Source: a virus (taxonomy: Duplodnaviria > Heunggongvirae > Uroviricota > Caudoviricetes). Taken from it: DNA of 64,000 nt. The stretch is taken from IMG/VR virus record IMGVR_UViG_3300028591_000140. The stretch is one strand, 5' to 3'. A program made the translations under genes and the position numbers. Position 1 is the first letter of the stretch, and each line of letters starts with the position of its first letter. The notes under the pieces were generated by a model. That model saw only the letters and a list, made by a program, of their open reading frames with translations, was not told the origin of the DNA and made no database searches. Shown piece by piece: positions 6,491 through 31,794 of this stretch.

Positions 6491-6526
6491 TTGTATAGAC
6501 TCCTTTCAAAATATAAATGACAACAA

Positions 6527-17457: not shown

Positions 17458-17534
17458 TGGTCCAAGTGGCGAGACTCGAACTCACGGCCTCTTGATCCCA
17501 AATCAAGCGCTCTAACCAACTGAGCTACACCTGG
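17458..17534 (-). tRNA. tRNA-Pro (anticodon UGG), CCA encoded
   Basis: Hand-folded cloverleaf: acceptor CCAGGTG/CACTTGG with the C1:G72 pair typical of bacterial tRNA-Pro. D-arm GCTC-AGTTGGTTA-GAGC, anticodon arm CTTGA-TTTGGGA-TCAAG, T-arm GTGAG-TTCGAGT-CTCGC, discriminator A, CCA. Confidence 0.8.
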
Positions 17535-19968: not shown

Positions 19969-20202
19969 TTACTCCAGTCCTTTCTGTTTCTTGATTTCAT
20001 AGACGGCAGCTCTCAGATGGTTCCCAAGCTCGGCGCTGCATGTCGGGCAAATGGCAGATCCTTTCTTAAATATAAATCGAGGTCCGGCAATGAATTTCTG
20101 CCACTTCATCCACGAATCATCAACGCCTTGCTGGGCCTCAGTGAAGAATCGACTTTCCCCGCAAATATCGCAGGTTAGCATCACGCCTTCAGAAATACTC
20201 AT
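19969..20202 (-). CDS. Small zinc-ribbon protein
   Basis: CDICG ... CPTC. Confidence 0.4.
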   Translation of the reverse strand: MSISEGVMLTCDICGESRFFTEAQQGVDDSWMKWQKFIAGPRFIFKKGSAICPTCSAELGNHLRAAVYEIKKQKGLE

Positions 20203-20348
20203 TTATGGCTCCTTTTTGGAATATGGCCGGTTACATAGATGCGATCGTTATAAACTTCAAGAGGTACATAACTTCCATCGTCCTCATATTGCCACAGAAG
20301 CATTCCCGTATTTTCATCGAGAACGATGCGTCCAGGTCTTTCTTCCAT

Positions 20349-21332
20349 TTACTTCGCCTCCCCGGGATTCAGAGAAATCATGTAGTTGCCGTCTTCGCTC
20401 AGCACAGTACCGGGTAACTCACCATTCCACTGCTTGATCCAATAGTAGGATACGAGTTCATTGGTCAGGCTCTTGCTGATTCTCTGGTTCATCTCGGCCT
20501 CGCGCTCACCTGCATAAAGGGCTGCCTCTGCCTGGACCTTGACAACCTCCAGATCAGCGTTGGCTGCGATGAGGGCCTGGTCGGCTTCTGCCTGTGCTTT
20601 AATTTTGGCACGTTCGGCTTCCTGCTTAGATTCCATTGTCTTCTGTGCCTGTTCGGTCTCAGCTCTTAATTTGTTCTGAAGAGCGACCTGTTTTGCTTCG
20701 ACAGCCGCTGTGAATTCAGGCTCAAATTCGATATTAGAAATAGCAAGATCTTCAACGACTATGCCATAGACCTGCATCTCGGCTTTGAACAATTCTTTAA
20801 CTTCCTTGGATAGTGTTTCACGTTCTTCAATCAGCCCATCCGCAATCTTTTTACCGATTACGATTTTGCTGTCTTCTTGGAGACGCTGAATCATAATCCG
20901 ATCAAAATAATCTACACCAACTGTTTTGTAGAGTTCGCGTGCCGCAGCCGGTGTGATGGACCATGTAATGGCCATATGAAAACTGGTGTTCTGTGTATCC
21001 TTAGTGAATGCTTCATCATCGTATTCTTTCTTCTGGGTTCGATTATCCATCGTAACAATATTCTGCCATGGCTTAATGAAATTAAGACCGGCATCAATAG
21101 TTCTCGCTTCCACACGTCCGAATGAGGTCAGAATGCCAGTAAAGCCTGTCGGTACTGTGGCCAAGCATGAAGCCACCAATATAATGGCTGACAGGACGAT
21201 TGCGATCAGGAGAGGCCAAAAGACAAAGTGAGCTTTCTCCTCATCGTTTCTTTCAGCTCTGAGTCTTCCGATGATGTTGCCAATCACGATACCGGCAACC
21301 ACAGCAATGATAGAGAATATAATTGCGAACAT
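20349..21332 (-). CDS. SPFH/band-7 (stomatin/prohibitin/HflKC-like) membrane protein
   Basis: N-terminal TM region followed by a PHB-like domain and a long A/E/Q-rich coiled coil. Confidence 0.6.
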   Translation of the reverse strand: MFAIIFSIIAVVAGIVIGNIIGRLRAERNDEEKAHFVFWPLLIAIVLSAIILVASCLATVPTGFTGILTSFGRVEARTIDAGLNFIKPWQNIVTMDNRTQKKEYDDEAFTKDTQNTSFHMAITWSITPAAARELYKTVGVDYFDRIMIQRLQEDSKIVIGKKIADGLIEERETLSKEVKELFKAEMQVYGIVVEDLAISNIEFEPEFTAAVEAKQVALQNKLRAETEQAQKTMESKQEAERAKIKAQAEADQALIAANADLEVVKVQAEAALYAGEREAEMNQRISKSLTNELVSYYWIKQWNGELPGTVLSEDGNYMISLNPGEAK

Positions 21333-21335
21333 GGT

Positions 21336-21812
21336 TTAATTTTCCTTTCTTTTATTACGTTTTAGTGACTCAAAGTCCACATGTTCACCAGTTGTGTGAA
21401 TAAGGGAAAGGGTTCCATCTTGGATAACAGATCCGTCATTCAAATATAAGCCATCAAAGAACCCCGTCATGATTCCTGTTCCGTCTGGACCATAATAGAT
21501 CCTTGTTACCATGAAAATGGCGTCAGGATCCTGCGGGTAATAGCAAATATCACCTACTTGAATGGGATCAACATGTATGGTATTTGAAGAGGCGATCATC
21601 TCCATATGATTGAAGTCAATTTTACCTTCACTAACAAGGTAATCGAACTTTGCCAAAGCTTCCTCTTCGGAATCGGCATAGACATTAAAATAGTCTACAA
21701 AAGTTTCTTCATGCCGAATTTTATATATCATGCGTTGTCCTTTCTTATTCTGTATGTTTAGGGAATGTTGCGACGTACTTAAAAACACACTGGGACATGA
21801 ATTTTGCATCAC
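21336..21812 (-). CDS. Hypothetical protein; paralog of 22082..22549
   Basis: N-terminal YFNVYADSEEEALAKFDYLVSEGKIDFNHMEMIASS versus YFEVEADNEAEAMDAYQHLVQEAKIDYGDMEMVDSS. Confidence 0.5.
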   Translation of the reverse strand: MMQNSCPSVFLSTSQHSLNIQNKKGQRMIYKIRHEETFVDYFNVYADSEEEALAKFDYLVSEGKIDFNHMEMIASSNTIHVDPIQVGDICYYPQDPDAIFMVTRIYYGPDGTGIMTGFFDGLYLNDGSVIQDGTLSLIHTTGEHVDFESLKRNKRKEN

Positions 21813-22140
21813 CAGGCCAATCCTGATACTCTCGATAACGCTTTATGGTAAATATCTCTTCGCCATTTCGAAAGTATTGACAGAAATCGCCCTGGGTGTT
21901 TTCGCGTTTGGAGAATTCTTCTGGATGCTCTGAAACATAATCGGGAGTTAATCCACATTGTTCCAGGCATTCCTTTAAGAATTCGTCGTATTTCTTGGCA
22001 ACATCTTGAGCATAAGCTTGAATGAAATCCTGAAGCTGCTCCAGTTCAGTGATGTCAGGCTGATAGGAGTCCAGTAGTCTCTTATCCATTAATTTTGATA
22101 GGCCACACTTTTTCTGTTCCAAACATGAATATGGAGGCAT
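21745..22140 (-). CDS. Hypothetical protein
   Basis: 131-aa ORF. Confidence 0.4.
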   Translation of the reverse strand: MPPYSCLEQKKCGLSKLMDKRLLDSYQPDITELEQLQDFIQAYAQDVAKKYDEFLKECLEQCGLTPDYVSEHPEEFSKRENTQGDFCQYFRNGEEIFTIKRYREYQDWPGDAKFMSQCVFKYVATFPKHTE

Positions 22141-22549
22141 CTGAACCTCTGGTGAAAACTAAAGCTGGATAAGTTCGACCGGTTCTCCAGATACGATCGG
22201 GCGAAAGCACTTCCTTTTGAATAACCGTTCCATCATGTCGAATTGCGTCGAATTCCATCCAGGACTTCATGTTTCCATCTTCGCCATTTGAAAATCGTCT
22301 CCGAATGCTGGTGATGATAAAGTGACGATCTTCTGGATGAATTTTATCGGCAGCCCAGAAGCATTCTTGTCCGACTTCAAAATTCTCTCGGATCAACTTG
22401 TCGGATGAATCCACCATCTCCATATCACCGTAGTCGATCTTTGCTTCTTGGACCAAATGCTGATAAGCATCCATGGCTTCTGCCTCATTATCGGCCTCGA
22501 CTTCAAAATATCCGACCAGTTCCTCTCTGTGTTCAATTTTAAATTTCAA
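22082..22549 (-). CDS. Hypothetical protein; paralog of 21336..21812
   Basis: See the paralog entry. Confidence 0.5.
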   Translation of the reverse strand: MKFKIEHREELVGYFEVEADNEAEAMDAYQHLVQEAKIDYGDMEMVDSSDKLIRENFEVGQECFWAADKIHPEDRHFIITSIRRRFSNGEDGNMKSWMEFDAIRHDGTVIQKEVLSPDRIWRTGRTYPALVFTRGSDASIFMFGTEKVWPIKING

Positions 22550-22980
22550 TTTCTTCCCTCCTTAAAAAACCCAGCTAAGAGAATCTTCCAGTCATCCCAA
22601 TCAGGTTCCGCGGAAAAATAAAAAGGCGATTCACTAAACCATTTATCCTTCTTCTCCTCAGAAATATCATGGAAATCGTGGAAGACATCTGGCAAGGTCT
22701 TGGATTTTGGACAGGGAGGAGGCGGAACCCAGTCTTTGTCGTGAAGAGCATAATAAACAACATCGACCCCTTCTGCTAATTCTTCATTTGCATAGAGGCC
22801 CATGCCGGAAATATAATGTTCCTCGTCGATGGCTATCTTCAGAGGTTTCCATCTGGATTCTCCGAGATCGCAATCAGCTAATCCTGGACGAATATGAATG
22901 ATTCCATGGCGTTCGAGAGAACCATCAACTGGGTATTTGATTAATAAACGCGACTGGTCTAAAACTTTCATCTCGCTCAT
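22546..22980 (-). CDS. Hypothetical protein
   Basis: 144-aa ORF. Confidence 0.45.
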   Translation of the reverse strand: MSEMKVLDQSRLLIKYPVDGSLERHGIIHIRPGLADCDLGESRWKPLKIAIDEEHYISGMGLYANEELAEGVDVVYYALHDKDWVPPPPCPKSKTLPDVFHDFHDISEEKKDKWFSESPFYFSAEPDWDDWKILLAGFFKEGRN

Positions 22981-23096
22981 CTCCTTTCTGAATCAAAAAA
23001 AAATAAAGAGAGGTTAAAAACTTAGCCTCTCTTTTGGTTGCTTTACAGGGTCTTCTTCATTTTGCTCACCTCCTCCTTAAATCAAAAATATAGGAT

Positions 23097-24530
23097 TTAC
23101 CAGGTGTACTCGCTGATCTTCTTCTCGAGAGATCCGACACCTTCCTCAGCCAGGAGGATGAAGTCGAAGACCTTCTCAGACCAGCCGGCGATGATATTAG
23201 TCTTTTTGCCGTAGAACTGCTGGGTGCCATAACCCTGAAGATCCACAGCGTGAACCCAAATATCATTTCCGGTCTCCCGACGATACCGATCAGCCAGAGA
23301 CTGAACAGGAGCTCTCCAACTGGAGTTGCACTCGTTGTCGGAAAGGATGATGATACGGTCAGCCTTGATCTTCTGCTGGGTCATGGCCATGAACGGAAGC
23401 TCCATATAGGTTCCTCCGCCGCATCTGCTGGACGATACTGCCTCCAGAATGCTGACTCGCTTCGGAACAGTGACGTTCTTGATCTGGTTATTGAACGTGT
23501 AGACGACAGCGTCCTCACAGATCCGATTAGCGATCAGACCGAGCATGAAGGAAATATCACAGCAGCGGACATCGGATTTGTCGCTGACAGGATCGCTCAT
23601 AGATCCGGAAATATCAATCGCAATGACCGTCTTTCCCGGAATCTTGGGCAGGTTGGAGATCGAAGCGTCCAGAGCATCCTCAAGCACATCATAGGTCTTG
23701 CTGGTGCCGAGGCCCTCATTCTTCAGAGTCCTGTATGCCGACAGGAATCGGAACGGGAGCTGCTTGGACTTCCTGACCGCCACAGGATCACGAAGTTTGG
23801 CGTAGACATCATCCAGGTTATACGGATCAGCCTTAATGATGTTGCGCAGGTTTCTCATCATAGCCATGTAACCGAGCTTCTTGCCTTCGATGAGATCCTC
23901 CCAAACCTCTTTCTTGTTTCCTCTGGCGCTGAGCTGAGTCTCCCAGGTTTCAGGGATCTCCATGGTTCCCTCAATGCAGCGCTTCCAGAGTGCAGCCTGC
24001 TCACCATTCATAGGCTTGGGACGGCAGAGACACAGGAGGTCACGCATCTTGACGGACTTGGAATCACCCTTATACTTGGCGAGGCTGTACTCATCCAGGG
24101 TCTTGAGGACATCGCCGATTCCCTTCTTCAGAGAGTTGGGGATGGGCTTGCCGAAGGTTGCGAGGTAGTAAGACATGATCTCAGTGATGTCGTCTGCTCT
24201 CACGGCAACACCTTTGACTGTCTGGCGCACGAAAGGTTTACCCTCAGGTGCATGGGCGAGATGGGCCGTCAGGACATGAGAAATGGACCTCATGTTAAAC
24301 TCCCGTCTGGCAAAGACAGCGAGATTGCTGACAAACTCGGGATCAGCCTTGATGACTCGATCCAGAGTCTCCAGAATATCATCGCTGTTGTCCCCATAAA
24401 ACTTCTTCTCGTTGAAGAAGCTGGTGAGGACCTGAGTGACGAGCTTGGATTTGTCGGCCATAGAGTATGCGACATGTCCTTCGTGGTTGGTCGTGCGAAT
24501 GGTGGGTCTCGGGGAATTGAACTTAGCCAT
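23097..24530 (-). CDS. rsr: Ro60/Rsr-like protein: TROVE domain plus C-terminal vWA domain with MIDAS motif
   Basis: vWA MIDAS DISGSM (VIAIDISGSMSD). Size about 477 aa from ATG at 24530 with SD GGAGGTG. Long helical TROVE-like N-terminal region. Sits immediately upstream of the Y-RNA-like array. Confidence 0.6.
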   Translation of the reverse strand: MAKFNSPRPTIRTTNHEGHVAYSMADKSKLVTQVLTSFFNEKKFYGDNSDDILETLDRVIKADPEFVSNLAVFARREFNMRSISHVLTAHLAHAPEGKPFVRQTVKGVAVRADDITEIMSYYLATFGKPIPNSLKKGIGDVLKTLDEYSLAKYKGDSKSVKMRDLLCLCRPKPMNGEQAALWKRCIEGTMEIPETWETQLSARGNKKEVWEDLIEGKKLGYMAMMRNLRNIIKADPYNLDDVYAKLRDPVAVRKSKQLPFRFLSAYRTLKNEGLGTSKTYDVLEDALDASISNLPKIPGKTVIAIDISGSMSDPVSDKSDVRCCDISFMLGLIANRICEDAVVYTFNNQIKNVTVPKRVSILEAVSSSRCGGGTYMELPFMAMTQQKIKADRIIILSDNECNSSWRAPVQSLADRYRRETGNDIWVHAVDLQGYGTQQFYGKKTNIIAGWSEKVFDFILLAEEGVGSLEKKISEYTW

Positions 24531-24689
24531 AGTTTGGCACCTCCGAAAAATTTTTATAGTAGGGAAAATATGATGGACCTCCCGTCTAAACAGAGAAAAG
24601 CAAAGTCGGATAAATGGTTTTTGGAAAAGTGGTGCAGACACTTTTAAAAATATGTTCATCTTGAAGTAACCGACTTTAACACTACTGTC

Positions 24690-24836
24690 CAGACAGGAGG
24701 TACCAAAACAAACCGAGAATTTCTGAAGCGCTTTAAAAGACAGTCCGGGATGGGCTGTTTATAGGATTCGAACCTATTAAAAACGAGTATTAATCATTTT
24801 ATTAACCGAAGTAAGCGCATCATACACTGCGGTAGT
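24690..24836 (-). ncRNA. Y-RNA-like (YrlA-like) tRNA-mimic module Y5
   Basis: Minus-strand order: GCAGUGUAUGAUGCGCUUACUUC, then T-arm AUAGG-UUCGAAU-CCUAU, then acceptor-like hairpin (AAACAG ... CUGUCUUU), then GCGCUUCAG-AAAUUCUCGG tail. Boundaries approximate. Confidence 0.4.
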
Positions 24837-25049
24837 TTTGCAGAATATAAATAGGTCTTAGATGCGATGAATTCGAGAGCGGTTAAAAATCGTCACGGTG
24901 AACGAGAAGCCGCGGCGATTAAAAAGCAGCGGACTCAAGAGAAAGGCAAAGACTTAAGCCGCCGAAAAAGTACAAGGAGGTCTTGTATGAAAATCATCAT
25001 CTTGAAGTAACCGACCTCTGCAATGCACATCTAAGACCTTGTGGAGAAT

Positions 25050-25173
25050 GCGGAGAATATCTGAAACGGTTTAATTTTGCTTTTTGCTCTACCGACTGAG
25101 CTACATCTCAAAATGAGAAGATAAGATTCGAACTTACGACAGAAAAGGAAGTAACCGTTTCATTCACTACCGC
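25050..25173 (-). ncRNA. Y-RNA-like (YrlA-like) tRNA-mimic module Y2
   Basis: Minus strand: GCGGUAGUGAAUGAAACGGUUACUUCC (GGUAGUGA matches the conserved Ro-binding-stem sequence of Y RNAs); T-arm GUAAG-UUCGAAU-CUUAU; closed acceptor hairpin CUUCUCA-UUU-UGAGAUG; D-arm UA-GCUC-AGUCGGUA-GAGC; then AAACCGUUUCAG, complementary to UGAAACGGUU of the 5' part. Confidence 0.5.
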
Positions 25174-25178
25174 ATAGT

Positions 25179-25310
25179 TGGCGAGGATGACCGGAATCGA
25201 ACCAGTGTCGTCGGCAATTACAGTGCGAAGTAACCATTTCATACACTTCAAATATAATTGAGGAAAACTGAAAAGGTACATTACGCCGTTCTACCACTGA
25301 ACTACATCCT
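25179..25310 (-). tRNA. tRNA-like gene with about 58-nt internal insertion: perfect 7-bp acceptor GAGGAUG/CAUCCUC, D-arm, T-arm, encoded GCCA; anticodon-like loop CUGUAAU (GUA, Tyr-like)
   Basis: 5' half GAGGATG-TA-GTTC-AGTGGTA-GAAC-G at 25286-25310; 3' half ACTGG-TTCGATT-CCGGT-CATCCTC-G-CCA ending 25179. Between them lies GCGTAATGTACCTTTTCAG ... GAAGTGTATGAAATGGTTACTTC, the same helix element as in the Y-RNA-like modules. Insertion position (D-arm/anticodon-stem junction) is non-canonical. Confidence 0.5.
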
Positions 25311-25384
25311 CGAAATATAGGCCGAGCAATTCAAATTCGCTTTTAAATTCAATAAATTAGCATAATATATCATGCTTTGCGTAA

Positions 25385-25470
25385 CCACACGCCTGTATAC
25401 AAATACAGATAGGAGTCGAACCTATGAACTCGTTGAAGTAAGCGGATCTCTCACTACGGCCTGAATTGTA
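25385..25470 (-). ncRNA. Y-RNA-like module Y3 (more degenerate)
   Basis: GGCCGUAGUGAGAG ... CUUACUUC, T-arm AUAGG-UUCGACU-CCUAU, acceptor hairpin CUGUAU-UUGU-AUACAG, D-arm-like GCGUGUGGUUACGC. Confidence 0.35.
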
Positions 25471-25499
25471 GGAAGGAGGAGCCGAGAAAACCAAAGTCA

Positions 25500-25612
25500 G
25501 ATAAAAACTTGAAGGGGTGATGTAACAAGACAGCCTTCAAGGGTCGAGTAACTAACTCTAAATTATGGCAGTTGAAGTATCTGGCTTCTGCACTACGGCT
25601 CTTATGGATTAA
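25500..25612 (-). ncRNA. Y-RNA-like stem element Y4 without tRNA-like domain; ends in a hairpin plus U-run
   Basis: GAGCCGUAGUGCAGAAGCC ... CUUCAACUGCC, then CUUGAAGG/CCUUCAAG 8-bp hairpin followed by UUUUUAUCUG (intrinsic terminator-like). Confidence 0.35.
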
Positions 25613-25821
25613 AAATATGATCCCAAATACGATAAAATTGATCTCGGTTGAGGTGTATTGATGGAAAAGGAGATCAAAGAATGGATGAAGGGAGACGACC
25701 TTTCTTTAGTCTCTAAGGTCATAAAGAGTCCGCAAAGCCAAGGAGGTACGTCAAATTTTATGTTCTTCGAAGTAACCGAGCTCTGCAATGCGTATTCGGG
25801 ATCAAGGGTGGATCTGCGGAG

Positions 25822-25947
25822 AAAAAGCTGAAACGGTACATATAGCGCTCTATCCGACTGAGCTACCACTCTGAACGAGTAGACTGGATTCGAACCAATG
25901 ACCTCTTCATCCCTAATGAAGTAACCGTTTCATACACTGCCGCAGCG
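25822..25947 (-). ncRNA. Y-RNA-like (YrlA-like) tRNA-mimic module Y1
   Basis: Minus strand: GCGGCAGUGUAUGAAACGGUUACUUCA; variable-arm-like hairpin CUUCA-UUAGGGA-UGAAG; T-arm AUUGG-UUCGAAU-CCAGU; closed acceptor-like stem CUACUCG-UUC-AGAGUGG; D-arm UA-GCUC-AGUCGGAUA-GAGC; GUACCGUUUCAGC pairing with UGAAACGGUUAC (10 bp, one bulged U); then UUUUU. Confidence 0.5.
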
Positions 25948-25950
25948 GAA

Positions 25951-26112
25951 TTATTCAGGTTTGGATTTCATTCCGTACTTCTTGCCGTCCGAAGCGACAA
26001 AAATATACTTATGCGGGATCAAAGTATCTGCTCCCACAAGGCAGGCGCAGATCAGATAGGTAACACCGATGCTTCCGAGACTTTTGGCAATGGCTACCGC
26101 AACGTCTTTCAT
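25951..26112 (-). CDS. Possible 53-aa small membrane protein (MKDVAVAIAKSLGSIGVTYLICACLVGADTL ...)
   Basis: ATG with upstream GGA-rich SD; hydrophobic core. Not in the supplied ORF track (below 60 aa); lies inside the ncRNA array. Confidence 0.3.
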   Translation of the reverse strand: MKDVAVAIAKSLGSIGVTYLICACLVGADTLIPHKYIFVASDGKKYGMKSKPE

Positions 26113-26254
26113 TTGTGTTCCATCCTTTCTAAATTACAGAAAAATATAGAGCGGAGAATATCTGATGTGGTCTAAATTCAAACAGCTTTCGAAGTAACCA
26201 CCTCATACACTTCCGCTCTCTATCATAAAAGCTGTATTTTTTGCGAATTTGCGC

Positions 26255-26545
26255 TTACTCTTCGATTTCGTCTACCGGCATGTCCGGGCAGTCAATCTCA
26301 TCGACTTTGTTGAGAAACTCCTCGGCAATATCAATCCAGATGTCTGCACATTTGCTCCAGCCGGCAGCCATGACCATAACATAACGCCAGATTCCGTCTG
26401 GTTCGGCATGAATGAATTTCTTGGCAAGATTGAGATAGAATCTACCCTTTTTATCACATCGGCCAGACAGCTTATGTGCTTTCTTTCCGATTCTATAGAA
26501 CCAGTCTCTCTGATTCTTGGACCAGCCACCGGAAATATCAGCCAA
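26255..26545 (-). CDS. Hypothetical protein
   Basis: 96-aa ORF. Confidence 0.45.
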   Translation of the reverse strand: MADISGGWSKNQRDWFYRIGKKAHKLSGRCDKKGRFYLNLAKKFIHAEPDGIWRYVMVMAAGWSKCADIWIDIAEEFLNKVDEIDCPDMPVDEIEE

Positions 26546-26948
26546 CGCGCTTCACCTCATCCATATACTTTTTCGCAAGGGACTTGATGCCGAGATCGTA
26601 CTTAGCCTTCAGGACATCGAGGAAATATCTCTGGCTATCCAGGATGACGAGAAGGAACTTCAAGATGCGGACGAGCTCATCATGAGACGCATTCTGCATC
26701 ACTGCATATTCGAAAAGGCGCTCCGTGAAATAGGGGCTCTCGAAGCGCTCGAGGTTTTTCTGCTTGTACTCGATGGGATCCATGGCGTAGGTGCCTTTGT
26801 AATCCCAGGTCTGAAGCTCCGGCCAAGTGGGATTGACGCCGTTCTTCATATCATAGAGCAGGCCACTGAGAAACTCTTTGTGTCTCTCTTTCTGCTGCTC
26901 GGGGGTCAGGGGTTCGGGCTTTTCATTTCTCTTCTTGAAGTCGCTCAT
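26538..26948 (-). CDS. Hypothetical protein
   Basis: 136-aa ORF. Confidence 0.45.
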   Translation of the reverse strand: MSDFKKRNEKPEPLTPEQQKERHKEFLSGLLYDMKNGVNPTWPELQTWDYKGTYAMDPIEYKQKNLERFESPYFTERLFEYAVMQNASHDELVRILKFLLVILDSQRYFLDVLKAKYDLGIKSLAKKYMDEVKRVG

Positions 26949-26977
26949 TGTTTGTGTTTCCTTTCAAATATCAGTAT

Positions 26978-27130
26978 TTAGAAACCATACTTATAGTAAT
27001 GGTCTCGGGCTCTGGTTTTTCCTTGTTCAGAGGCATAGCCGTAGACGAAGCTGACCGAATAGGTAGCGGCCAGAATACAAATGCTTTGCAGGAGACCTTT
27101 GCCGAAGCCTTTCATGAATGCACCGTTCAT
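26978..27130 (-). CDS. Small membrane protein (start taken at the internal MNGAFMKGFG)
   Basis: Hydrophobic segment ICILAATYSVSFVYGY; SD before the internal ATG. Confidence 0.4.
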   Translation of the reverse strand: MNGAFMKGFGKGLLQSICILAATYSVSFVYGYASEQGKTRARDHYYKYGF

Positions 27131-27217
27131 TTGCAGTTCCTCTCTTTCATAATTACAGAAATATAAAAGGAAGAGACCATAGTAATTTACTACGATCTCA
27201 TCCTTTTTCACTTGGTC

Positions 27218-27514
27218 TTATGCTACTTCAGAATCAACCACAACGGGCTCCGGTTCTTCCTCAGCAACCTCATCCGGCTGCGGGAGCATCACGGGTTCCT
27301 CGGGTTCGGGCAGGTAAGCAGGAGTGGACTCGTCCTCAGTCGAGACGCTCATAGCTGCCGCGACAAGCAGTCCTCCTACACAGAATGCTGCTATGCCGAC
27401 GACGACCTTCGCGCCGTTGACCAGGATCGTCTTCCGCTTGGCCTTCTTCTCCTCGAGTTCCTTTTTCTGTTCCTCAGTCAGTTCGGGTTTCTCCTTAGAT
27501 TTAAAAAGCTTCAT
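27218..27514 (-). CDS. Small single-TM protein with acidic proline-rich tail (holin- or spanin-like topology)
   Basis: TM VVVGIAAFCVGGLLVAAAMSV flanked by K/E-rich N-terminus and PEPEEP tail. Confidence 0.45.
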   Translation of the reverse strand: MKLFKSKEKPELTEEQKKELEEKKAKRKTILVNGAKVVVGIAAFCVGGLLVAAAMSVSTEDESTPAYLPEPEEPVMLPQPDEVAEEEPEPVVVDSEVA

Positions 27515-27554
27515 TTCTTTCGATTCCTTTCTTTACTTAATTAAGACCTCCGTC

Positions 27555-27580
27555 TCACTATAAGGCATGTAAATTTTGCG
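27555..27580 (-). promoter_or_regulatory. Conserved promoter-like motif copy
   Basis: cactataaggcatgtaaattttgcgg. Confidence 0.45.
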
Positions 27581-27654
27581 GTTTAGATAGCAATTACCGC
27601 AATAATCGCCACAGCCAGGAGAATATAAGTGATCGTGATGAGTCTCATTTATGG

Positions 27655-28569
27655 TTACCTCCACTTCATATCGGTTTCGTCATCATCCAGCTCATAGTCC
27701 AGACGCTGAGCATCTTCGCCATTACTGTCCTCAAGATTGAGATGCCACTTCGGAGCGCCAGACTTCGTGAAGCCGATCACATGGGCCACACTATCATCGG
27801 ACAATTGAATGGCCGTGATCTTCAGCTCAATCGGGCAATTGAACCAGCCGAAGTCCTTACCGATCTTAACGCCATTCGGAAGAGTATCATCTGCATTGAT
27901 GTGCTCATCACTCGCCGGCAGATCCAGATATTCACGCCAAGTATCGTAACAGACTGCGGACTTTCTCATACCCCAGCGAGTATGAGTCATTTCCAGATTG
28001 AGTTTTTCGGTCATTTTCCGAATGAAGTCCAGATCAGACCAGTAATAGTCGTGAAGGATCGGGTCATAGCATAGTGTGTTACCATGGCCGGTGTTGATGA
28101 CCGTCGCATAGTTGACCGGATGAGACTTCACATCATCTTTCGCCATCTCATCCTTCATTTTCTCATACTCTTTCGGCCCATACTTCTCGATGACTTTCTT
28201 CTCGAGTTTCTCGGCCTCCTCTGTTTTGGTTGCCAATGCTGCCGTGGCGATGGCTGCCTGAGCATACTTGATCTTATAGCCGGCAAATATCATCGCACCA
28301 CCGCCAATGACCATTGCTGTCGGGATGCCAAGATGAAATGCCAGAATCTTTCCTTTCTCGATCAGGTACTCCTTATGAGAAAGTCCCTCCTTAGCATCGA
28401 GGGTAGCAAGCTCTGTCACCATCTTAGGCGTCTCTATGCCGGTCTTGACTGCGCCTCCTGCCATCATGCAGACACCAAATATCACTCCGACAGTCGGGGC
28501 AGCCTTGATAAGTGCTTTACCTGTGAGTTTCGCAGTTGTCTGGATTGTTTTCAGATTCAATGGAACCAT
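27655..28569 (-). CDS. Two-TM membrane protein, family member 2 (paralog of 12427..13353 and 28832..29635)
   Basis: Same architecture and conserved linker and C-terminal blocks. Confidence 0.55.
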   Translation of the reverse strand: MVPLNLKTIQTTAKLTGKALIKAAPTVGVIFGVCMMAGGAVKTGIETPKMVTELATLDAKEGLSHKEYLIEKGKILAFHLGIPTAMVIGGGAMIFAGYKIKYAQAAIATAALATKTEEAEKLEKKVIEKYGPKEYEKMKDEMAKDDVKSHPVNYATVINTGHGNTLCYDPILHDYYWSDLDFIRKMTEKLNLEMTHTRWGMRKSAVCYDTWREYLDLPASDEHINADDTLPNGVKIGKDFGWFNCPIELKITAIQLSDDSVAHVIGFTKSGAPKWHLNLEDSNGEDAQRLDYELDDDETDMKWR

Positions 28570-28575
28570 GAAATA

Positions 28576-28731
28576 TCATTCCTCCACTTCTTTGGGTTCA
28601 TCATTGTTTGAATGCCGTTCCACATAGCTGACATGCGGTTCAGTCATGATGCCATACATGCAGATAGCACCGGCGATGAACGACGTTGAGACCATAATGC
28701 CTCCGACCATTGTTGCGAGAATATACCTCAT
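28576..28731 (-). CDS. Small membrane peptide (MRYILATMVGGIMVSTSFIAGAICMYGIM ...)
   Basis: Internal ATG with SD AAAGGAG; a TM helix. The longer 117-aa ORF-track version has no RBS. Confidence 0.4.
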   Translation of the reverse strand: MRYILATMVGGIMVSTSFIAGAICMYGIMTEPHVSYVERHSNNDEPKEVEE

Positions 28732-28802
28732 GCTGAATCTCCTTTCTGCTTTCAAAGCGAAAATATAAAAGAGAGGCCAGATTTTGCTCCGAGCCTCCCT
28801 CT

Positions 28803-28829
28803 CTATTATAGTGAATGCAAAACCTGCGA
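28803..28829 (-). promoter_or_regulatory. Conserved promoter-like motif copy
   Basis: ctattatagtgaatgcaaaacctgcga. Confidence 0.5.
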
Positions 28830-28831
28830 TT

Positions 28832-29635
28832 TCAGAATGGCAGTGGTCCCGAATCCTTGAGATACGAAATATCATTCGGATGAATCCCGTACTCCAACTG
28901 ATAGAAATGGCTGCCATCCGGATTGTCAATGATCTGAGGAGCTAACTCGATCCAAGCGCCACCATAGTAGCCAGCGCCCTCAGTGAACATCTCATCGTCA
29001 TAGCTCCAGCCAAGATGCATTGATTTGGAATTGCCTTTGAGACCAAACATGTGAAGAATACTGTCCAGATACACGGTATCCATTTGCAGGAGTCTCTTGT
29101 TAGCACAAAGTTCAACCCAGAGAATATCCTTCAGATCTGCGTAGATCCATTGCTCGCTATAGGGTTCCCAGATCTTGAACTTCTCGGATGTATTCAGGGC
29201 ATACTTATCAACTTTTTGACGGAGCTCTTTTTCTTCGGCAATTTCCTTCTTGACTTCTTTGACTGCATTCTCTCCATACTTCTCGCTGAATTTCTTCTCG
29301 AGATCCTCGCTTGCAGTCTTATAAGCCAACGCCGCAGCGGTCAGAGCAGTCTCATTGCTGACATGCCACTTATGTGCACCAATCGCACAACCCATTGTGA
29401 ATAAAGCCATCAATCCGGCCGGAATATACTTTTTCCAGTTCTTTCTGACTACTTTGCGGACTGTCTGCTTTACCGGAATATCACTGTCTTCCACAAATAG
29501 AACAGCCTCAGTGGTATCCGATAAGCAATCCAGGGTTGCCGTATAGGTTAAGTAACCCGTAGTGACAACCCCGGAACAGACAAAGCCAGTCAGAAGCGCC
29601 GGACCGTTTTTAAGGGCCCAGGTTTTCAGACTCAT
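28832..29635 (-). CDS. Two-TM membrane protein, family member 3
   Basis: Paralog of 12427..13353 and 27655..28569. Confidence 0.55.
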   Translation of the reverse strand: MSLKTWALKNGPALLTGFVCSGVVTTGYLTYTATLDCLSDTTEAVLFVEDSDIPVKQTVRKVVRKNWKKYIPAGLMALFTMGCAIGAHKWHVSNETALTAAALAYKTASEDLEKKFSEKYGENAVKEVKKEIAEEKELRQKVDKYALNTSEKFKIWEPYSEQWIYADLKDILWVELCANKRLLQMDTVYLDSILHMFGLKGNSKSMHLGWSYDDEMFTEGAGYYGGAWIELAPQIIDNPDGSHFYQLEYGIHPNDISYLKDSGPLPF

Positions 29636-29638
29636 AGC

Positions 29639-30664
29639 TTACACCTTGCTCGCCACGTCAAGGACGAACTTGCCATAGCGATATGCCAGATAGCCAGCCG
29701 GGATCGCCGGAAGCGCTCCGACAAATATCACACAGCCCTTGGTCCAGCCATGCTCCTTCAGCCACCAGGCCAGCTTCTCAGCGGCAGGGGTATCGGAGGC
29801 GATGGAGAGGGATCTGGAGTAGTCATTGGCATCCTGGAGTCTGACCAGCTCTTCATTGTCATGGGCCATCAGAATGCAGTCGGCTTCCTCCTCAGTCCTC
29901 TTCGCCTGAATATCATGGAGCATCTTTGCTTTGGCTTCGTCAAACTCCCGTTCGAGAGAATCGACATTGCGCGCTGTCTTCTCGTCCAGCCGCCGTTTCT
30001 CCTTGGCAATCTTCTCCTCCATGCCACGGACAGAGTCTCTGCGTTTCCGATCGAATTTCTCCTTCTCAGCCGCAAGCTGTTTCTCAAGGGCCTCTTTCTT
30101 GCCCTTTGCCTCGCCGACGATCTTGTTCTTGGTATCCTCAGCGATATGCTTGAGCTTGGCTGCATCCTCGGAGATTGTCTCGTCAACGTTCTCATACATC
30201 TTGCGCTGGATCTCCCACTTCTCAGTGGCATCAGCAATTTCACGATCCAGAGCTTCCACCGTCTCGTCATAGTTGACAGAGACCTTGAACGCCGCGATGG
30301 AGTCCTCCATATCCTTCTGGATCTCAGCGAGCTTGGCGTCGTAATCCAGACTCTTCTTGAATTCCTCAAGAGCACGGGCGCCATCAGCGTAGAAGGCATT
30401 CTTTTTAGAGTCAAAGCCGGATGTACGCTTCCACTCTTTGATGGCGATCTTCAAATCCTTACCTTCACGAGATAGGACAGCGTCCCGGAGAGCAATATCA
30501 TTCTTTGCCTTCATGTACTTAGCCAGATCGTCCGAAGAGTTTTCGGCGACGGCCAGTTCCAGCGCCTTGACCTTCTCAAATTTCTCATCGGCAATATAAT
30601 TACCGATTTTGAAGGTGCCGATAAGACCTGCCATGACGAATTCAGAGATAAGTTTGGTGTTCAT
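29639..30664 (-). CDS. Long coiled-coil protein with C-terminal TM anchor
   Basis: E/K/A-rich heptad-like sequence; C-terminal hydrophobic CVIFVGALPAIPAGYLAY. Confidence 0.5.
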   Translation of the reverse strand: MNTKLISEFVMAGLIGTFKIGNYIADEKFEKVKALELAVAENSSDDLAKYMKAKNDIALRDAVLSREGKDLKIAIKEWKRTSGFDSKKNAFYADGARALEEFKKSLDYDAKLAEIQKDMEDSIAAFKVSVNYDETVEALDREIADATEKWEIQRKMYENVDETISEDAAKLKHIAEDTKNKIVGEAKGKKEALEKQLAAEKEKFDRKRRDSVRGMEEKIAKEKRRLDEKTARNVDSLEREFDEAKAKMLHDIQAKRTEEEADCILMAHDNEELVRLQDANDYSRSLSIASDTPAAEKLAWWLKEHGWTKGCVIFVGALPAIPAGYLAYRYGKFVLDVASKV

Positions 30665-30689
30665 TTCTTTTTAGTTCCTTTCTTTTTTA

Positions 30690-31577
30690 TTAAAACAGCA
30701 GACTTGCAGTGCTGTCCCATTTGGTGTAAAGTTTGCAATTCGGTCTCAGGACCAAATATTTGAGTTCGGCTTTGGCCTGCGTAGACATGCAGTCATCATC
30801 CAGAACAGTAGAAATCCCATCTACATCATATCTAGTCTGACCAAATGCCAGAATCTCAAGAGGCCGACCATGCTCCCGAATATAATTCTTGATGCTCTCT
30901 ATATACTCGGGAGTGGCTGCGTGTTCTTTGATCCACTGATTCTGAGGACAATCCGGATTGGACTGATCAGAATATAACACTCTGAATGTGATTTGATCAG
31001 CATTAAGTACATGTTTGACATGCTGAAATATCTTCTCTGGCTTAGGCTGAGATTGTCCAGGCAGAATTTGGTCAGTCATATTTAGCGAGATTCGAAGATT
31101 CAGACCAGAACTCTTGATCATTTCACATAACTTGGAAATATCAATACGCTCTTTTGCTCCTGTGTATTTCCAATTAATTAGGTGAGATAGCGAGCTGATA
31201 CTGAGGCTCACCGTATTAACCCCGACATGATCACGCAGAAACTCAATATAATTCTGATCCAGGAAAGCTCCGGCCGTCTGAATCGAAATATGTCGGAACG
31301 GCTTGCTCAGGCTCTCGTTCAGTAGACCAAAGAGAGTGAGAAAAGCTCGATTCTGTGTGGGTTCGGCATCACCGGTCAGCATGACAGCGTTGCAATTGTT
31401 ATCACGGGCATAGGCCAGACGCTTTTTGTAATCCTCAATTGCCTTGTGAATCTCAGGATTATTAAACGCCATCCGATTCTGCCCGTAATCTTCACTGTGT
31501 TGTTTGCTCACACAGAACGCGCAGTCATTCACGCACTTTTCAGTGGGAACAACAATTGAAAGTGACTGAATTTGCAT
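30690..31577 (-). CDS. Radical-SAM enzyme (QueE or activase-like); function unassigned
   Basis: CVNDCAFC CxxxCxxC cluster near the N-terminus. Confidence 0.55.
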   Translation of the reverse strand: MQIQSLSIVVPTEKCVNDCAFCVSKQHSEDYGQNRMAFNNPEIHKAIEDYKKRLAYARDNNCNAVMLTGDAEPTQNRAFLTLFGLLNESLSKPFRHISIQTAGAFLDQNYIEFLRDHVGVNTVSLSISSLSHLINWKYTGAKERIDISKLCEMIKSSGLNLRISLNMTDQILPGQSQPKPEKIFQHVKHVLNADQITFRVLYSDQSNPDCPQNQWIKEHAATPEYIESIKNYIREHGRPLEILAFGQTRYDVDGISTVLDDDCMSTQAKAELKYLVLRPNCKLYTKWDSTASLLF

Positions 31578-31794
31578 AGTTCCTCTCCTTTCAAATATCA
31601 GTCATCGTCAGTGGGCTCCATGCTATTGCGGTTCAGAACCCCACTAACAATCTTCCCACAGAGATAAGTTGCCTGCTTTTCATTGAATCCGACCTTCAGA
31701 AAACTCTGATGTTGCATCCACATGAATTCTGCCAGAGCTCCTGTAGCGGTCATCAGCTTCTGAATCATTTCATTCGGATCTGGATTTGCCATTT

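What the first reader, a model, noticed from the sequence alone, without database searches (positions are those of the whole stretch)
25179..25310. CCA-ending tRNA-like gene interrupted between D-arm and anticodon arm by a 58-nt Y-RNA-type helix insertion
A perfect 7-bp acceptor stem (GAGGAUG/CAUCCUC), D-arm, T-arm (ACUGG-UUCGAUU-CCGGU), discriminator G and encoded CCA define a tRNA in canonical 5'-to-3' order. About 58 extra nucleotides sit between position 26 and the anticodon arm (loop CUGUAAU, anticodon GUA; flanks resemble tRNA-Asn/Tyr). The insert is built from the same two complementary elements that form the putative Ro-binding stem of the neighbouring Y-RNA-like modules (GUACCUUUUCAG and GAAGUGUAUGAAAUGGUUACUUC).

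Three readings are possible: an intron at a non-canonical position, a tRNA/Y-RNA chimera that could recruit Ro60 to a tRNA, or a recombination product between repeated elements.
Basis: seen in the sequence. Interest (0 to 1): 0.75.

Follow-up and report, generated by a model that had tools for sequence, protein, structure and literature searches.

The report
Y RNA wired in tRNA order
The 133-nt element is a real, conserved phage RNA gene: a Ro60-associated "Y RNA" helix grafted onto the anticodon side of a tRNA-shaped body that keeps normal tRNA ends and an encoded CCA tail. This gene order is the reverse of all described bacterial YrlA Y RNAs, and it recurs next to Ro60 genes in several phage and bacterial lineages.

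Summary
On the minus strand (25311..25179) lie a perfect 7-bp acceptor stem, D-arm, T-arm, discriminator G and encoded CCA, with about 60 extra nt on the anticodon side. Rfam tRNA scores 43.8 bits (gathering score 29).

The insert carries the same motifs as ten Y-RNA-like modules arrayed directly upstream of a phage Ro60 (TROVE) gene.

It is best read as a circular permutation of a YrlA-type Y RNA: the ends are at the acceptor and the Y stem is closed by a hairpin.

I found the same architecture in about nine lineages. These include rumen and other phages, Polyangiales, an Anaerolinea MAG and Saccharimonadales. Seven of the nine have a Ro60 gene within a few kb.

Across 22 copies, all 7 acceptor pairs and 6 of 7 Y-helix pairs show compensatory changes.

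The "anticodon" that ARAGORN calls differs between lineages, and even between near-identical paralogs. A decoding tRNA or a spliced intron is therefore unlikely.

Normal closed YrlA-like modules are strongly enriched for N-CCA at the start of the acceptor loop. This fits the known RNase P and CCA processing of M. smegmatis YrlA.

Verdict: a real feature and a new topological variant of a known RNA class. Its function (Ro60 binding, RNase P processing) is inferred, not shown.

The parts
25179..25311 (-). Whole element: tRNA-ordered (circularly permuted) YrlA-like Y RNA, 133 nt including the encoded CCA
   Evidence: Rfam tRNA 43.8 bits. Own covariance model R1 108 bits. Ortholog L043:2163-2295 is 129/133 identical.
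25305..25311 (-). Acceptor stem 5' strand GAGGAUG (RNA positions 1-7)
   Evidence: Pairs 7/7 with 25183..25189. All 7 acceptor pairs covary across 22 copies.
25288..25302 (-). D-arm GUUC-AGUGGUA-GAAC (positions 10-24), with A14, G15, G18 and G19
   Evidence: D stem is 100% paired in the alignment.
25280..25287 (-). Junction GGCGUAAU. GGCG is the probable 5' strand of a short anticodon-proximal stem that pairs with UGCC at 25213..25216.
   Evidence: Resembles the Rfam YrlA consensus ggcguAuG that follows the D arm. A short stem at this register is present in most lineages. ARAGORN draws CGGCG/UGCCG. This pairing competes with the GCA/UGC mini-hairpin.
25270..25279 (-). Y-helix strand GUACCUUUUC (positions 33-42), equivalent to the 3' strand of normal modules
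   Evidence: Pairs with GAAAUGG-U(U)AC at 25230..25240. 6 of 7 core pairs show compensatory changes across lineages.
25241..25269 (-). Apical part of the Y arm: AG UUUUCCUC / GAAGUGUAU internal-loop motifs, closed by hairpin CCUCAA-UUAUAU-UUGAAG
   Evidence: These motifs match CAGCUUUUUCUCCGC and GCGGAAGUGUAUGA of the neighbouring modules. All 4 differences from L043 fall in this segment. RNAfold closes it as a hairpin.
25227..25240 (-). Y-helix strand GAAAUGG followed by the conserved UUACUUC motif (positions 72-85)
   Evidence: GGTTACTTC hit at 25227-25235. The motif is present in every module of the array and in the arrays of Ro60-linked loci that were fetched by protein similarity.
25207..25226 (-). 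It is followed by a variable-loop-like GACGAC ending in C48.
   Evidence: Loop size and sequence at this position vary between lineages.
25190..25206 (-). T-arm ACUGG-UUCGAUU-CCGGU
   Evidence: T stem is 100% paired, and 3 of 5 pairs covary.
25179..25189 (-). Acceptor 3' strand CAUCCUC, discriminator G, encoded CCA
   Evidence: N-CCA is also encoded in L041, L132 and L139.
24590..26220 (-). Array of ten Y-RNA-like modules flanking the element: 26220..26148, 25946..25814 (YrlA-like), 25793..25731, 25601..25479, 25461..25320 (T-arm module), 25173..25050 (YrlA-like), about 25030..24960, 24833..24712 (T-arm module), 24688..24590
   Evidence: Read. Rfam YrlA sub-threshold hits are at 25161..25060 and 25931..25827. 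Motif clustering is shown. The array is syntenic in L043.
23097..24533 (-). Phage Ro60/Rsr ortholog (478 aa), directly downstream of the array on the same strand
   Evidence: Pfam TROVE 8e-35 plus vWA_Ro60 3e-13.
20349..21332 (-). SPFH/Band_7 protein gene, three ORFs downstream of Ro60 (context only)
   Evidence: Pfam Band_7 3e-27. Conserved downstream of Ro60 in L043.

Best explanation
The element is a Ro60-associated Y RNA of the YrlA (tRNA-mimic) kind whose gene is circularly permuted relative to all described YrlAs. In a normal YrlA the 5' and 3' ends form the Ro60-binding stem and the tRNA-like acceptor stem is closed by a loop. Here the acceptor stem is open, with a tRNA-type 5' end and an encoded G-CCA 3' end, and the Y stem is closed by a hairpin and projects from the anticodon side of the tRNA-like body.

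**Proposed mechanism**
1. The array upstream of rsr is transcribed as a precursor (inferred).
2. RNase P cuts at G1. This also trims the module 8 nt upstream. 3' trimming stops at the encoded CCA. The result is a one-piece, 133-nt RNA (inferred from the 7-bp acceptor, T-arm, CCA and the M. smegmatis precedent).
3. The body folds into a tRNA L-shape. U8-A14, G15-C48, G18/G19 with the UUCGA T-loop, and G53-C61 are all present (shown by sequence).
4. The long irregular Y arm binds the phage Ro60. The tRNA-like elbow and free acceptor end engage a tRNA-binding partner, as proposed for YrlA (inferred).

Functionally it would be the single-chain equivalent of RNase P-cleaved, CCA-tailed M. smegmatis YrlA.
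For: **The tRNA body is real.** Rfam tRNA scores 43.8 bits against a gathering score of 29.

**The insert is a Y-RNA module.** It carries the Y-module motifs of ten neighbouring modules, two of which hit Rfam YrlA at E 6e-7 and 1.6e-5. A TROVE plus vWA_Ro60 gene starts 57 nt after the array on the same strand.

**The two halves look like halves of normal YrlA modules.** They match L117/L111 and L048, and the match extends beyond the tRNA arms. The flanking modules are complete in themselves, so the two halves belong to each other.

**The same open-acceptor, capped-Y-stem architecture recurs in independent lineages.**
- L037 and L041/L122
- L125/L126/L131
- L169/L189/L193
- L212/L156
- Polyangiales: L135, L146, L148, L150, L152
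- Anaerolinea L138
- L132/L139

**Covariation supports the fold.** 97% of cells are paired, against 72% in shuffles and 37-50% in slid controls. All 7 acceptor pairs, 6 of 7 Y-helix pairs and 3 of 5 T-stem pairs have changes on both sides.

**Ro60 linkage appears without being selected for.** Elements found by DNA pattern or covariance model alone lie next to Ro60 homologs. Examples: L138, L148, L126/L131 and L169/L189/L193. In L150 the order is sigma54 activator, TGGCAC-N5-CTGCA promoter, element, TROVE gene.

**CCA tails.** Four lineages encode N-CCA at positions 73-76, and the Polyangiales copies with the UUACUUC motif encode N-CC.

**An open CCA end looks like a functional state in the wider family.** Of 72 normal modules with a perfect 7-bp closed acceptor, 16 have N-CCA at the start of the acceptor loop, where about 1 is expected.

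**Literature.**
- M. smegmatis YrlA, which has a 7-bp acceptor, is cleaved by RNase P and receives CCA in vivo (PMC4201824).
- The YrlA tRNA-like domain is a true L-shaped mimic but 'lacks a free CCA end' (bioRxiv 10.1101/312249).
Against: - No expression, processing or Ro60-binding data exist for this element or any permuted copy.
- The published YrlA motif GNCGAAN0-1G is not present on the Y arm. The conserved motifs here are UUACUUC and A(G/U)UG(U/N)A(U/G), so Ro60 binding is inferred by analogy only.
- The terminal GCGG/CCGC helix of normal modules is reduced to a short capped hairpin in the window copy. This could weaken Ro60 binding.
- The unconstrained minimum-free-energy fold disrupts the D-arm, and its z-score is only -1.6.
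- The 97% identity to L043 is not specific selection. The element sits in a 94-100% identical block that includes spacers.
- Part of the homolog set was ascertained with patterns that required the D-loop, UUACUUC and T-loop, and I picked the hits that showed acceptor complementarity. Conservation of those motifs and the percentage paired are therefore partly by construction.
- The junction between the tRNA body and the Y arm has at least three competing pairings.
Confidence: 0.72

Rival explanations
1. It is a genuine decoding tRNA (tRNA-Tyr, anticodon GUA). Either the roughly 60-nt Y-type insert is an intron removed to give a 73-75-nt tRNA, or it is tolerated as an extra arm.
For: - ARAGORN in intron mode calls tRNA-Tyr(gta) with a 60-nt insert. 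It draws a canonical 5-bp anticodon stem CGGCG/UGCCG and the 7-nt loop UUGUAAU.
- The acceptor is perfect, CCA is encoded and all elbow nucleotides are present.
- Related phages carry genuine tRNAs at equivalent places in their Y arrays.
Against: - Across the class the in-silico 'anticodon' is inconsistent: gta, agc, ttt, tac, tca, gaa, taa, ctg, cta, tta, act. It differs even between near-identical Polyangium paralogs (tca, gaa, taa). The loop at that position ranges from 4 to 9 nt.
- The insert keeps every conserved Y-module motif and covaries as a helix, which is not expected of a discarded intron.
- From established knowledge, not tested here: bacterial tRNA-Tyr has a long variable arm and A73, whereas this element has a 4-6-nt variable region and G73.
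- Bacterial tRNA introns are group I (200 nt or more) and sit in the anticodon loop.
- No bacterial bulge-helix-bulge splicing endonuclease is known (this point is also made in 10.1101/312249).
- The ARAGORN fold needs a 3-bp D stem.
Confidence: 0.06
2. It is a non-functional by-product of recombination between tandem YrlA modules (3' half of one plus 5' half of the next) that merely looks like an interrupted tRNA.
For: - The array is repetitive. Junctions between tandem normal modules mimic the pattern and score up to 68 bits with the permuted model.
- The window and L043 are mosaic in this region.
- The permuted form is rare among Ro60 phage loci: 3 lineages out of about 100 loci.
Against: - Unlike tandem junctions, the two halves pair 7/7 with each other, the Y strands pair with each other, and the Y stem is capped by a short hairpin instead of two terminal strands and a spacer.
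- Both flanking modules are complete.
- CCA sits exactly at positions 74-76.
- The same design recurs in about nine sequence-diverged lineages with compensatory changes in every acceptor pair, and mostly beside Ro60.
Confidence: 0.07
3. Its main role is in cis. It acts as a tRNA-like punctuation mark that recruits RNase P and 3' processing enzymes to cut the polycistronic Y-RNA array into units, as tRNAs or mascRNA-type elements do elsewhere, and the released RNA has no function of its own.
For: - G1 lies 8 nt after the end of the upstream module, and the CCA lies 5 nt before the next module.
- Genuine tRNAs are interspersed in the Y arrays of related phages.
- In L041 the element directly follows a CCA-ending class II tRNA.
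Against: - A plain tRNA would do this job, yet the element specifically retains a covarying Y helix with the conserved Y motifs.
- In Polyangiales it is the first product of a sigma-54-type promoter and has no upstream module to release.
- This reading is compatible with the main explanation rather than exclusive of it.
Confidence: 0.12

Closest known systems
YrlA (Rfam RF02553), the tRNA-mimicking bacterial and phage Y RNAs encoded next to rsr (Chen et al. 2014, PMC4201824; Wang et al. 2018, 10.1101/312249)
   Same: - Encoded beside a Ro60 gene on the same strand.
- T-arm, acceptor stem and D-arm carry the tRNA tertiary-interaction nucleotides.
- A long irregular helix emerges from the anticodon side.
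- The junction sequences GGCGUAAUGU and UGCC-N6-[T arm] resemble the Rfam consensus ggcguAuGu and cgcc-uGUu-[T arm].
- Neighbouring modules in the same array hit the YrlA model.
   Different: - The gene order is circularly permuted: acceptor 5' strand, D-arm, Y stem (closed), T-arm, acceptor 3' strand, CCA.
- The ends are free and tRNA-like, with an encoded CCA. YrlA is described as lacking a free CCA end.
- The Rfam YrlA model does not hit the element.
- The published GNCGAAN0-1G motif is replaced by other conserved motifs (UUACUUC, AGUGUAU).
- Many family members carry an extra anticodon-like mini-hairpin.
RNase P-cleaved, CCA-tailed Mycobacterium smegmatis YrlA (Chen et al. 2014)
   Same: The end state is the same: a Ro60-bound Y stem joined to a tRNA-like body with an open 7-bp acceptor stem and a 3' CCA.
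   Different: In M. smegmatis that state is reached by cutting a closed loop. This gives a two-piece RNA, and CA is added after transcription. Here it is hard-wired as one chain with an encoded CCA.
Circularly permuted tmRNA (two-piece ssrA) genes and permuted tRNA genes of Cyanidioschyzon and archaea (from general knowledge; the permuted tRNA genes are discussed in 10.1101/312249)
   Same: They are precedents for gene-level circular permutation of a tRNA-like RNA that preserves the folded architecture.
   Different: They are different RNA families with different functions. In those cases the permuted gene is the unusual form that must be processed back. Here the unusual form is the one in canonical tRNA order.
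b7a-tRNA, the predicted Band-7-associated tRNA-like RNA of RtcB repair operons (Burroughs & Aravind 2016, known to me only through 10.1101/312249)
   Same: [quoted passage not shown] The window and L043 have an SPFH/Band_7 gene three ORFs after Ro60.
   Different: I could not obtain its sequence or structure definition. No Band_7 gene was found near the permuted elements of the other lineages. Nothing I could read says b7a-tRNA carries a Y-type helix.
Canonical tRNA (Rfam RF00005)
   Same: Acceptor, D and T arms, elbow nucleotides, discriminator and CCA. It passes the Rfam gathering score.
   Different: It has about 60 extra nt on the anticodon side. There is no conserved anticodon across homologs. 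Default ARAGORN does not call it.

Membership tests
YrlA (RF02553) | Reaches the family covariance model (gathering score 69 bits) | tested here: not met
   No YrlA hit on 25179-25311 even at E<=10. The neighbours score 43 and 38 bits.
YrlA (RF02553) | 5' and 3' ends pair to form the Ro60-binding stem, and the acceptor-like stem is closed by a loop with no free CCA | tested here: not met
   The topology is reversed. The acceptor is open with G-CCA and the Y stem is capped by a hairpin.
YrlA (RF02553) | tRNA-like domain with a T-arm, D-arm and acceptor stem that carry the tRNA tertiary nucleotides | tested here: met
   alignment. U8, A14, G15, G18, G19, the UUCGA T-loop and C48 are present. The stems covary.
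YrlA (RF02553) | GNCGAAN0-1G motif on the Ro60-binding stem (Chen 2014) | tested here: not met
   By inspection, the Y-arm strand reads GAAGUGUAUGAAAUGGUUACUUC. The only near match (GGCGUAAUG) lies on the other strand, just after the D-arm.
YrlA (RF02553) | Encoded within a few kb of a Ro60/TROVE gene on the same strand | tested here: met
   The Ro60 start at 24533 is 646 nt downstream on the same strand. The same linkage holds in 7 of 9 lineages.
YrlA (RF02553) | Bound by Ro60/Rsr in vivo | not testable with these tools
   Needs co-immunoprecipitation or a gel-shift assay.
tRNA (RF00005) | Cloverleaf that reaches the Rfam gathering score | tested here: met
   43.8 bits against 29, but only with a 70-nt local insertion in the anticodon arm.
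tRNA (RF00005) | Contiguous 5-bp anticodon stem and 7-nt loop, with an anticodon conserved among homologs | tested here: not met
   The anticodon arm is interrupted. ARAGORN -i gives different 'anticodons' in every lineage and between paralogs.
tRNA (RF00005) | Aminoacylation and decoding | not testable with these tools
   Needs a charging assay. G73 and a short variable region do not fit bacterial tRNA-Tyr identity (established knowledge).
tRNA intron (bacterial group I, or archaeal/eukaryal bulge-helix-bulge) | Group I catalytic core, or a bulge-helix-bulge motif at the exon-intron boundaries | tested here: not met
   No intron family hit in the Rfam scan of 20000-32000 at E<=10. A 58-60-nt insert is too short for a group I core (established knowledge). 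The boundaries flank a plain helix with asymmetric loops, judged by inspection. No formal bulge-helix-bulge search was run.
b7a-tRNA (Burroughs & Aravind 2016) | tRNA-like RNA encoded beside an SPFH/Band-7 gene in an RtcB-type repair operon | tested here: inconclusive
   A Band_7 gene lies about 3.8 kb downstream in the window and is conserved in L043.

The most novel reading that the evidence does not exclude
The tRNA-ordered Y RNA is a working acceptor. After RNase P processing, its encoded CCA end is aminoacylated, or at least bound by a synthetase, EF-Tu or the CCA-adding enzyme. Phage Ro60 would then be tethered to the translation or tRNA-repair machinery by a charged tRNA mimic, in a tmRNA-like manner. 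For example, it could deliver Ro60 to ribosomes, or act as a decoy or sensor for host anticodon nucleases.

A related reading is that this topology is the ancestral form, a tRNA whose anticodon arm grew a Ro60 site, from which classical YrlA arose by permutation.
Probability: 0.1. Interest if true: 0.85.

Novelty: new variant of a known kind. Interest (0 to 1): 0.66.

Why it matters
Bacterial Y RNAs of the YrlA type are established tRNA mimics, but the partner of their tRNA-like domain is unknown. They are defined as lacking a free CCA end.

A naturally one-piece version with authentic tRNA termini, recurring beside Ro60 genes in phages and in several bacterial phyla, has four consequences:

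1. **Missing Y RNAs.** Homology searches with the standard model would miss these genes. Chen et al. 2014 reported few YrlAs in delta-proteobacteria and some Ro60 genomes with no candidate. Polyangiales carry the permuted form.
2. **Support for an open-ended active state.** Together with the N-CCA enrichment in the closed acceptor loops of normal modules, it supports the idea that an open, CCA-ended acceptor is a functional state of this RNA class. It would not then be a peculiarity of M. smegmatis.
3. **A clean experimental substrate.** It gives a single-chain RNA for testing whether Y RNAs are processed by RNase P, CCA-tailed or charged, and for structural work on Ro60 with a complete tRNA-like module.
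4. **Origin of Y RNAs.** It bears on the proposed origin of Y RNAs from tRNAs.

Tried and rejected
- **GenBank phages.** blastn of the array against GenBank phages found no match.
- **Exact-protein lookup** of the window Ro60 found nothing on record.
- **Relaxed scripted scan** for D...Y5...T with 6/7 acceptor pairs was too noisy. Most hits were junctions between tandem normal modules with similar acceptors, or chance. The 'closed hairpin nearby' filter wrongly removed L037 and L041, so flanks were checked by eye.
It was useful only because the covariance model then found new elements elsewhere in those loci.
- **Thermodynamic folding alone** does not recover the cloverleaf and is not significant (z -1.6). 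Constrained folds do not settle the junction.
- **Conservation against L043** as a selection signal was rejected, because the surrounding spacers are equally conserved.
- **Promoter and terminator scan** gave nothing informative on the minus strand near the element.
- **Literature not held.** Burroughs & Aravind 2016 and the Sim/Wolin reviews are not in the library, and the supplements of Chen 2014 are not held. An earlier description of tRNA-ordered Y RNAs, or identity with b7a-tRNA, therefore cannot be excluded.
- **Plus-strand ORF** 25662-25831, antisense to a module, was considered and rejected. L043 has a 1-nt insertion just after its start codon.
Full report
**1. What is in the sequence**

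The feature lies on the minus strand, from 25311 (G1) to 25179 (A of the CCA).

Reading 5' to 3':
- GAGGAUG, acceptor 5' strand
- UA
- GUUC-AGUGGUA-GAAC, D-arm
- GGCGUAAU
- GUACCUUUUC-AG
- UUUUCCUCAAUUAUAUUUGAAGUGUAU
- GAAAUGGUUAC-UUC
- GCACUGUAAUUGCCGACGAC
- ACUGG-UUCGAUU-CCGGU, T-arm
- CAUCCUC, acceptor 3' strand
- G-CCA

Rfam's tRNA model matches it end to end at 43.8 bits (gathering score 29, E 5e-6 over the whole window), with 70 nt in place of the central anticodon arm. Default ARAGORN misses it. ARAGORN in intron mode calls tRNA-Tyr(gta) with a 60-nt insert.

**2. Surroundings**

The element sits inside a 1.65-kb array (26220..24590, minus strand) of ten modules. Each module has:
- a 5' strand of the form GCGG-N-AGUGUAUGA-N5-GGUUACUUC
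- a matching 3' strand of the form (GU)ACC-N-UUUCAG-N-UUCUCCGC

. GGTTACTTC occurs exactly seven times in the 64-kb window, all within this array, and two more copies with one mismatch also lie there.

Two modules contain a T-arm, a closed acceptor hairpin and a D-arm between the strands. They hit Rfam YrlA at 43 and 38 bits (E 6e-7 and 1.6e-5), below the gathering score of 69.

Directly downstream on the same strand is a 478-aa Ro60 ortholog with TROVE at 8e-35 and vWA_Ro60 at 3e-13. Three ORFs further on is an SPFH/Band_7 gene. The window is a phage genome, with PHROG DNA polymerase, ligase and other hits.

The modules on both sides of the element are complete in themselves. The upstream one ends 8 nt before G1, and the next one starts 5 nt after the CCA. 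The two tRNA halves therefore belong to each other.

**3. What it is: a YrlA in tRNA order**

- A normal YrlA runs Y-stem 5' strand, T-arm, acceptor (closed), D-arm, Y-stem 3' strand.
- The element runs acceptor 5' strand, D-arm, Y-stem '3' strand', cap, Y-stem '5' strand', T-arm, acceptor 3' strand, CCA.
- This is a circular permutation.

Sequence similarity supports this reading:
- The element's 5' half matches the 3' halves of normal YrlA modules in L117 and L111.
- Its 3' half matches the 5' half of the module in L048.
- The matches include junction sequence outside the tRNA arms.
- GGCGUAAUGU after the D-arm and UGCC-GACGAC before the T-arm resemble the Rfam YrlA consensus ggcguAuGu and cgcc-uGUu.

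The internal-loop motifs of the Y stem (AGUUUUCCUC and GAAGUGUAUGA) are retained. The terminal GCGG/CCGC helix of normal modules is replaced by a short hairpin, CCUCAA-UUAUAU-UUGAAG.

**4. Related sequences**

*Loci collected.* Using the Ro60 protein I fetched about 120 loci from viral and metagenome collections. All have Y-module arrays next to Ro60, often with genuine tRNAs interspersed.

*Closest ortholog.* L043 (Ro60 82% identical in protein) has a syntenic array and the element at 129/133 identity. All four differences lie in the apical part of the Y arm. This is not a specific selection signal, because the element sits in a 94-100% identical block that includes spacers.

*Other lineages with the same architecture.* Scripted scans, two DNA-pattern scans and a covariance model (R1) found these:

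| Lineage | Acceptor | Tail or context |
|---|---|---|
| L037 | GAGAGUA/UACUCUC | G-UAG |
| L041 = L122 | AGUCGGU/ACCGACU | C-CCA; directly after a class II tRNA |
| L125/L126/L131 | GGGGAGA/UCUCCCC | A-UUU |
| L169/L189/L193 | GGAGGGA/UCCCUCC | A-CAA (L169), A-CGG (L189, L193) |
| L212/L156 | UGCCAUU/AGUGGCA | A-CUU (L212), A-CAU (L156) |
| Polyangiales L135, L146, L148, L150, L152 | for example GCCAGGA/UCCUGGU | 1-3 copies found per fetched locus |
| Anaerolinea MAG L138 | GCCAAGG/CCUUGGC | GCGG/CCGC terminal stem capped by a UCCG tetraloop |
| L132/L139 (L139 is Saccharimonadales) | UUCCGAG/CUCGGAC (L132, 6 of 7 paired) | N-CCA; between tRNAs |

*Specificity.* Among about 100 Ro60-linked phage loci, only the window/L043, L041 and L037 lineages carry the permuted form. 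The next-best covariance-model hits (68 bits or less) are junctions between tandem normal modules, with closed acceptors visible on both flanks.

**5. Covariation and linkage**

On the 22-copy alignment (A4):
- 97% of cells form standard pairs, against 72% in shuffles and 37-50% when partners are slid.
- All 7 acceptor pairs, 6 of 7 Y-helix pairs and 3 of 5 T-stem pairs show changes on both sides.
- The 15-copy MAFFT alignment gives the same picture.

Caveat: several copies were ascertained with patterns that fixed the D-loop, UUACUUC and the T-loop, and I retained the hits that showed acceptor complementarity. Motif conservation and percentage paired are therefore partly by construction. The diversity of perfectly complementary acceptor sequences is not.

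Elements found without any reference to Ro60 still lie next to Ro60 homologs:
- L138: directly upstream of a TROVE gene.
- L150: sigma-54 activator, TGGCAC-N5-CTGCA promoter, element, TROVE gene.
- L148.
- L126/L131.
- L169/L189/L193.

.

Four lineages encode N-CCA at positions 73-76. The Polyangiales copies with the UUACUUC motif encode N-CC; a second set with UUACUCC ends G-CUU.

**6. Is it a decoding tRNA or an intron?**

Probably not.
- ARAGORN's intron mode finds a 'tRNA' in every copy, but the anticodon it reports differs from lineage to lineage: gta, agc, ttt, tac, tca, gaa, taa, ctg, cta, tta, act.
- It differs even between near-identical Polyangium paralogs.
- The small hairpin at that position has loops of 4-9 nt.
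- The insert is the conserved, covarying part, which is the opposite of an intron.
- From established knowledge: 60 nt is too short for a bacterial group I intron; no bacterial bulge-helix-bulge endonuclease is known; bacterial tRNA-Tyr has a long variable arm and A73, whereas this element has a short variable region and G73.

**7. The junction is unresolved**

Three pairings compete in the window copy:
- GGCG/UGCC, or CGGCG/UGCCG at the cost of G10-C25. This is homologous to the YrlA anticodon-like stem.
- GCG/CGC, which extends the Y helix.

.

Most lineages show a 3-5-bp stem at the first register, with some covariation: ACGU/ACGU, GCGU/ACGU, UAAG/CUUA, CGUGC/GCACG, AGC/GCU. In several lineages it is followed by a separate mini-hairpin. 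Many normal modules carry a full anticodon-like arm with a CU-NNN-AA loop.

**8. How it most likely works**

*Shown:*
- a tRNA-shaped body with all elbow nucleotides
- a covarying Y helix bearing the family's conserved motifs
- an encoded CCA
- linkage to Ro60

*Inferred:*
- transcription with the array
- 5' cleavage by RNase P at G1 and 3' trimming to the CCA
- binding of the Y arm by phage Ro60
- presentation of a tRNA-like elbow and acceptor end to a tRNA-binding partner

*Experimental precedent.* M. smegmatis YrlA has a 7-bp acceptor. It is cut by RNase P and receives CCA in vivo, which gives a two-piece RNA with the same open end (PMC4201824).

*Family-wide support.* Of 72 normal modules with a perfect 7-bp closed acceptor, 16 begin the loop with N-CCA, where about one is expected. 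An open, CCA-ended acceptor therefore looks like a selected state in the family. The permuted gene delivers it in one chain.

**9. Comparison with what is known, and novelty**

- Chen et al. noted few YrlAs in delta-proteobacteria and Ro60 genomes with no candidate.
- I found no description of a tRNA-ordered, CCA-ended Y RNA in the searchable library. Rfam has no family that captures it.
- Membership in YrlA in the strict sense fails on topology, on the model score and on the GNCGAA motif. The element works like a YrlA and belongs to the same broader class.

I rate it a new variant of a known kind.

**10. Verdict**

The chimera reading is right in substance, the intron reading is unlikely, and recombination is plausible only as the evolutionary origin.
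- The feature is real and recurrent, and it is of clear interest to the Ro60/Y RNA and tRNA-mimicry fields.
- Its function remains inferred.

Noticed in passing
Loci L002, L005, L013, L015, L016, L020, L032, L039, L053, L069, L071, L081, L109, L118, L133, L143 (acceptor loops of normal YrlA-like modules): Of 72 distinct normal modules with a perfect 7-bp closed acceptor stem, 16 have a loop that starts with N-CCA (for example UGUCUGA-GCCACGC-UCAGAUG). About 1 is expected by chance. This suggests the loop is opened by RNase P to leave an encoded CCA end.
   Followed up: partly
L005:5612-5768, L006:149-221, L007:5646-5729, L048:2900-3080 and 3402-3476, L041:489-574: Genuine tRNAs, several with encoded CCA, are interspersed among the Y-RNA modules next to Ro60 in related phages. 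In L041 a class II tRNA directly precedes the permuted element.
   Followed up: partly
window 20349-21332 (-), and tRNA-Pro(UGG) at 17458-17534 (-): An SPFH/Band_7 gene lies three ORFs downstream of Ro60 and is conserved in L043. The literature predicts a Band-7-associated tRNA-like RNA (b7a-tRNA) sometimes found near Rsr. Whether the element or the nearby tRNA-Pro relates to it could not be tested.
   Followed up: partly
window 25951-26112 (-): A 53-aa hydrophobic ORF (MKDVAVAIAKSLGSIGVTYLICACLVG...) with a plausible ribosome-binding site sits inside the Y-RNA array, between modules 1 and 2. It is nearly identical in L043. No Pfam hit.
   Followed up: no
L135:3880-4053 and 6230-6676, L146, L148, L150:319-3378: In Polyangiales several permuted elements sit about 16-20 nt downstream of a TGGCAC-N5-(C/T)TGC sigma-54-type promoter. 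In L150 the order is sigma-54 activator, promoter, element, TROVE gene, which resembles the RtcR-controlled rsr operon of Salmonella.
   Followed up: partly
window 25946-25179 compared with 25173-23097, against L043: The identity profile is mosaic. It is 94-100% across modules 2-5, the spacers and the element, then falls to 88% and about 64% towards Ro60, whose CDS is 78% identical in nucleotides. This suggests recent exchange of part of the array between phages.
   Followed up: yes
Normal modules such as window 25926-25895, L001:255-275, L002:5770-5790, L004:5700-5720, L007:5535-5555: Many normal modules carry a full anticodon-like arm (5-bp stem, 7-nt loop of the form CU-NNN-AA) between the UUAC motif and the T-arm. 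They are therefore complete permuted cloverleaves plus a Y stem, not just T, acceptor and D mimics.
   Followed up: partly
L139:578-2929: The Saccharimonadales contig with a permuted element also encodes an RNA ligase interrupted by an intein with a LAGLIDADG domain, about 5 kb away.
   Followed up: no
window 24291-24342 (-): Weak Rfam hit to Mu-gpT-DE RNA (22 bits, gathering score 49, E 0.19) inside the Ro60 coding sequence. Probably chance.
   Followed up: no
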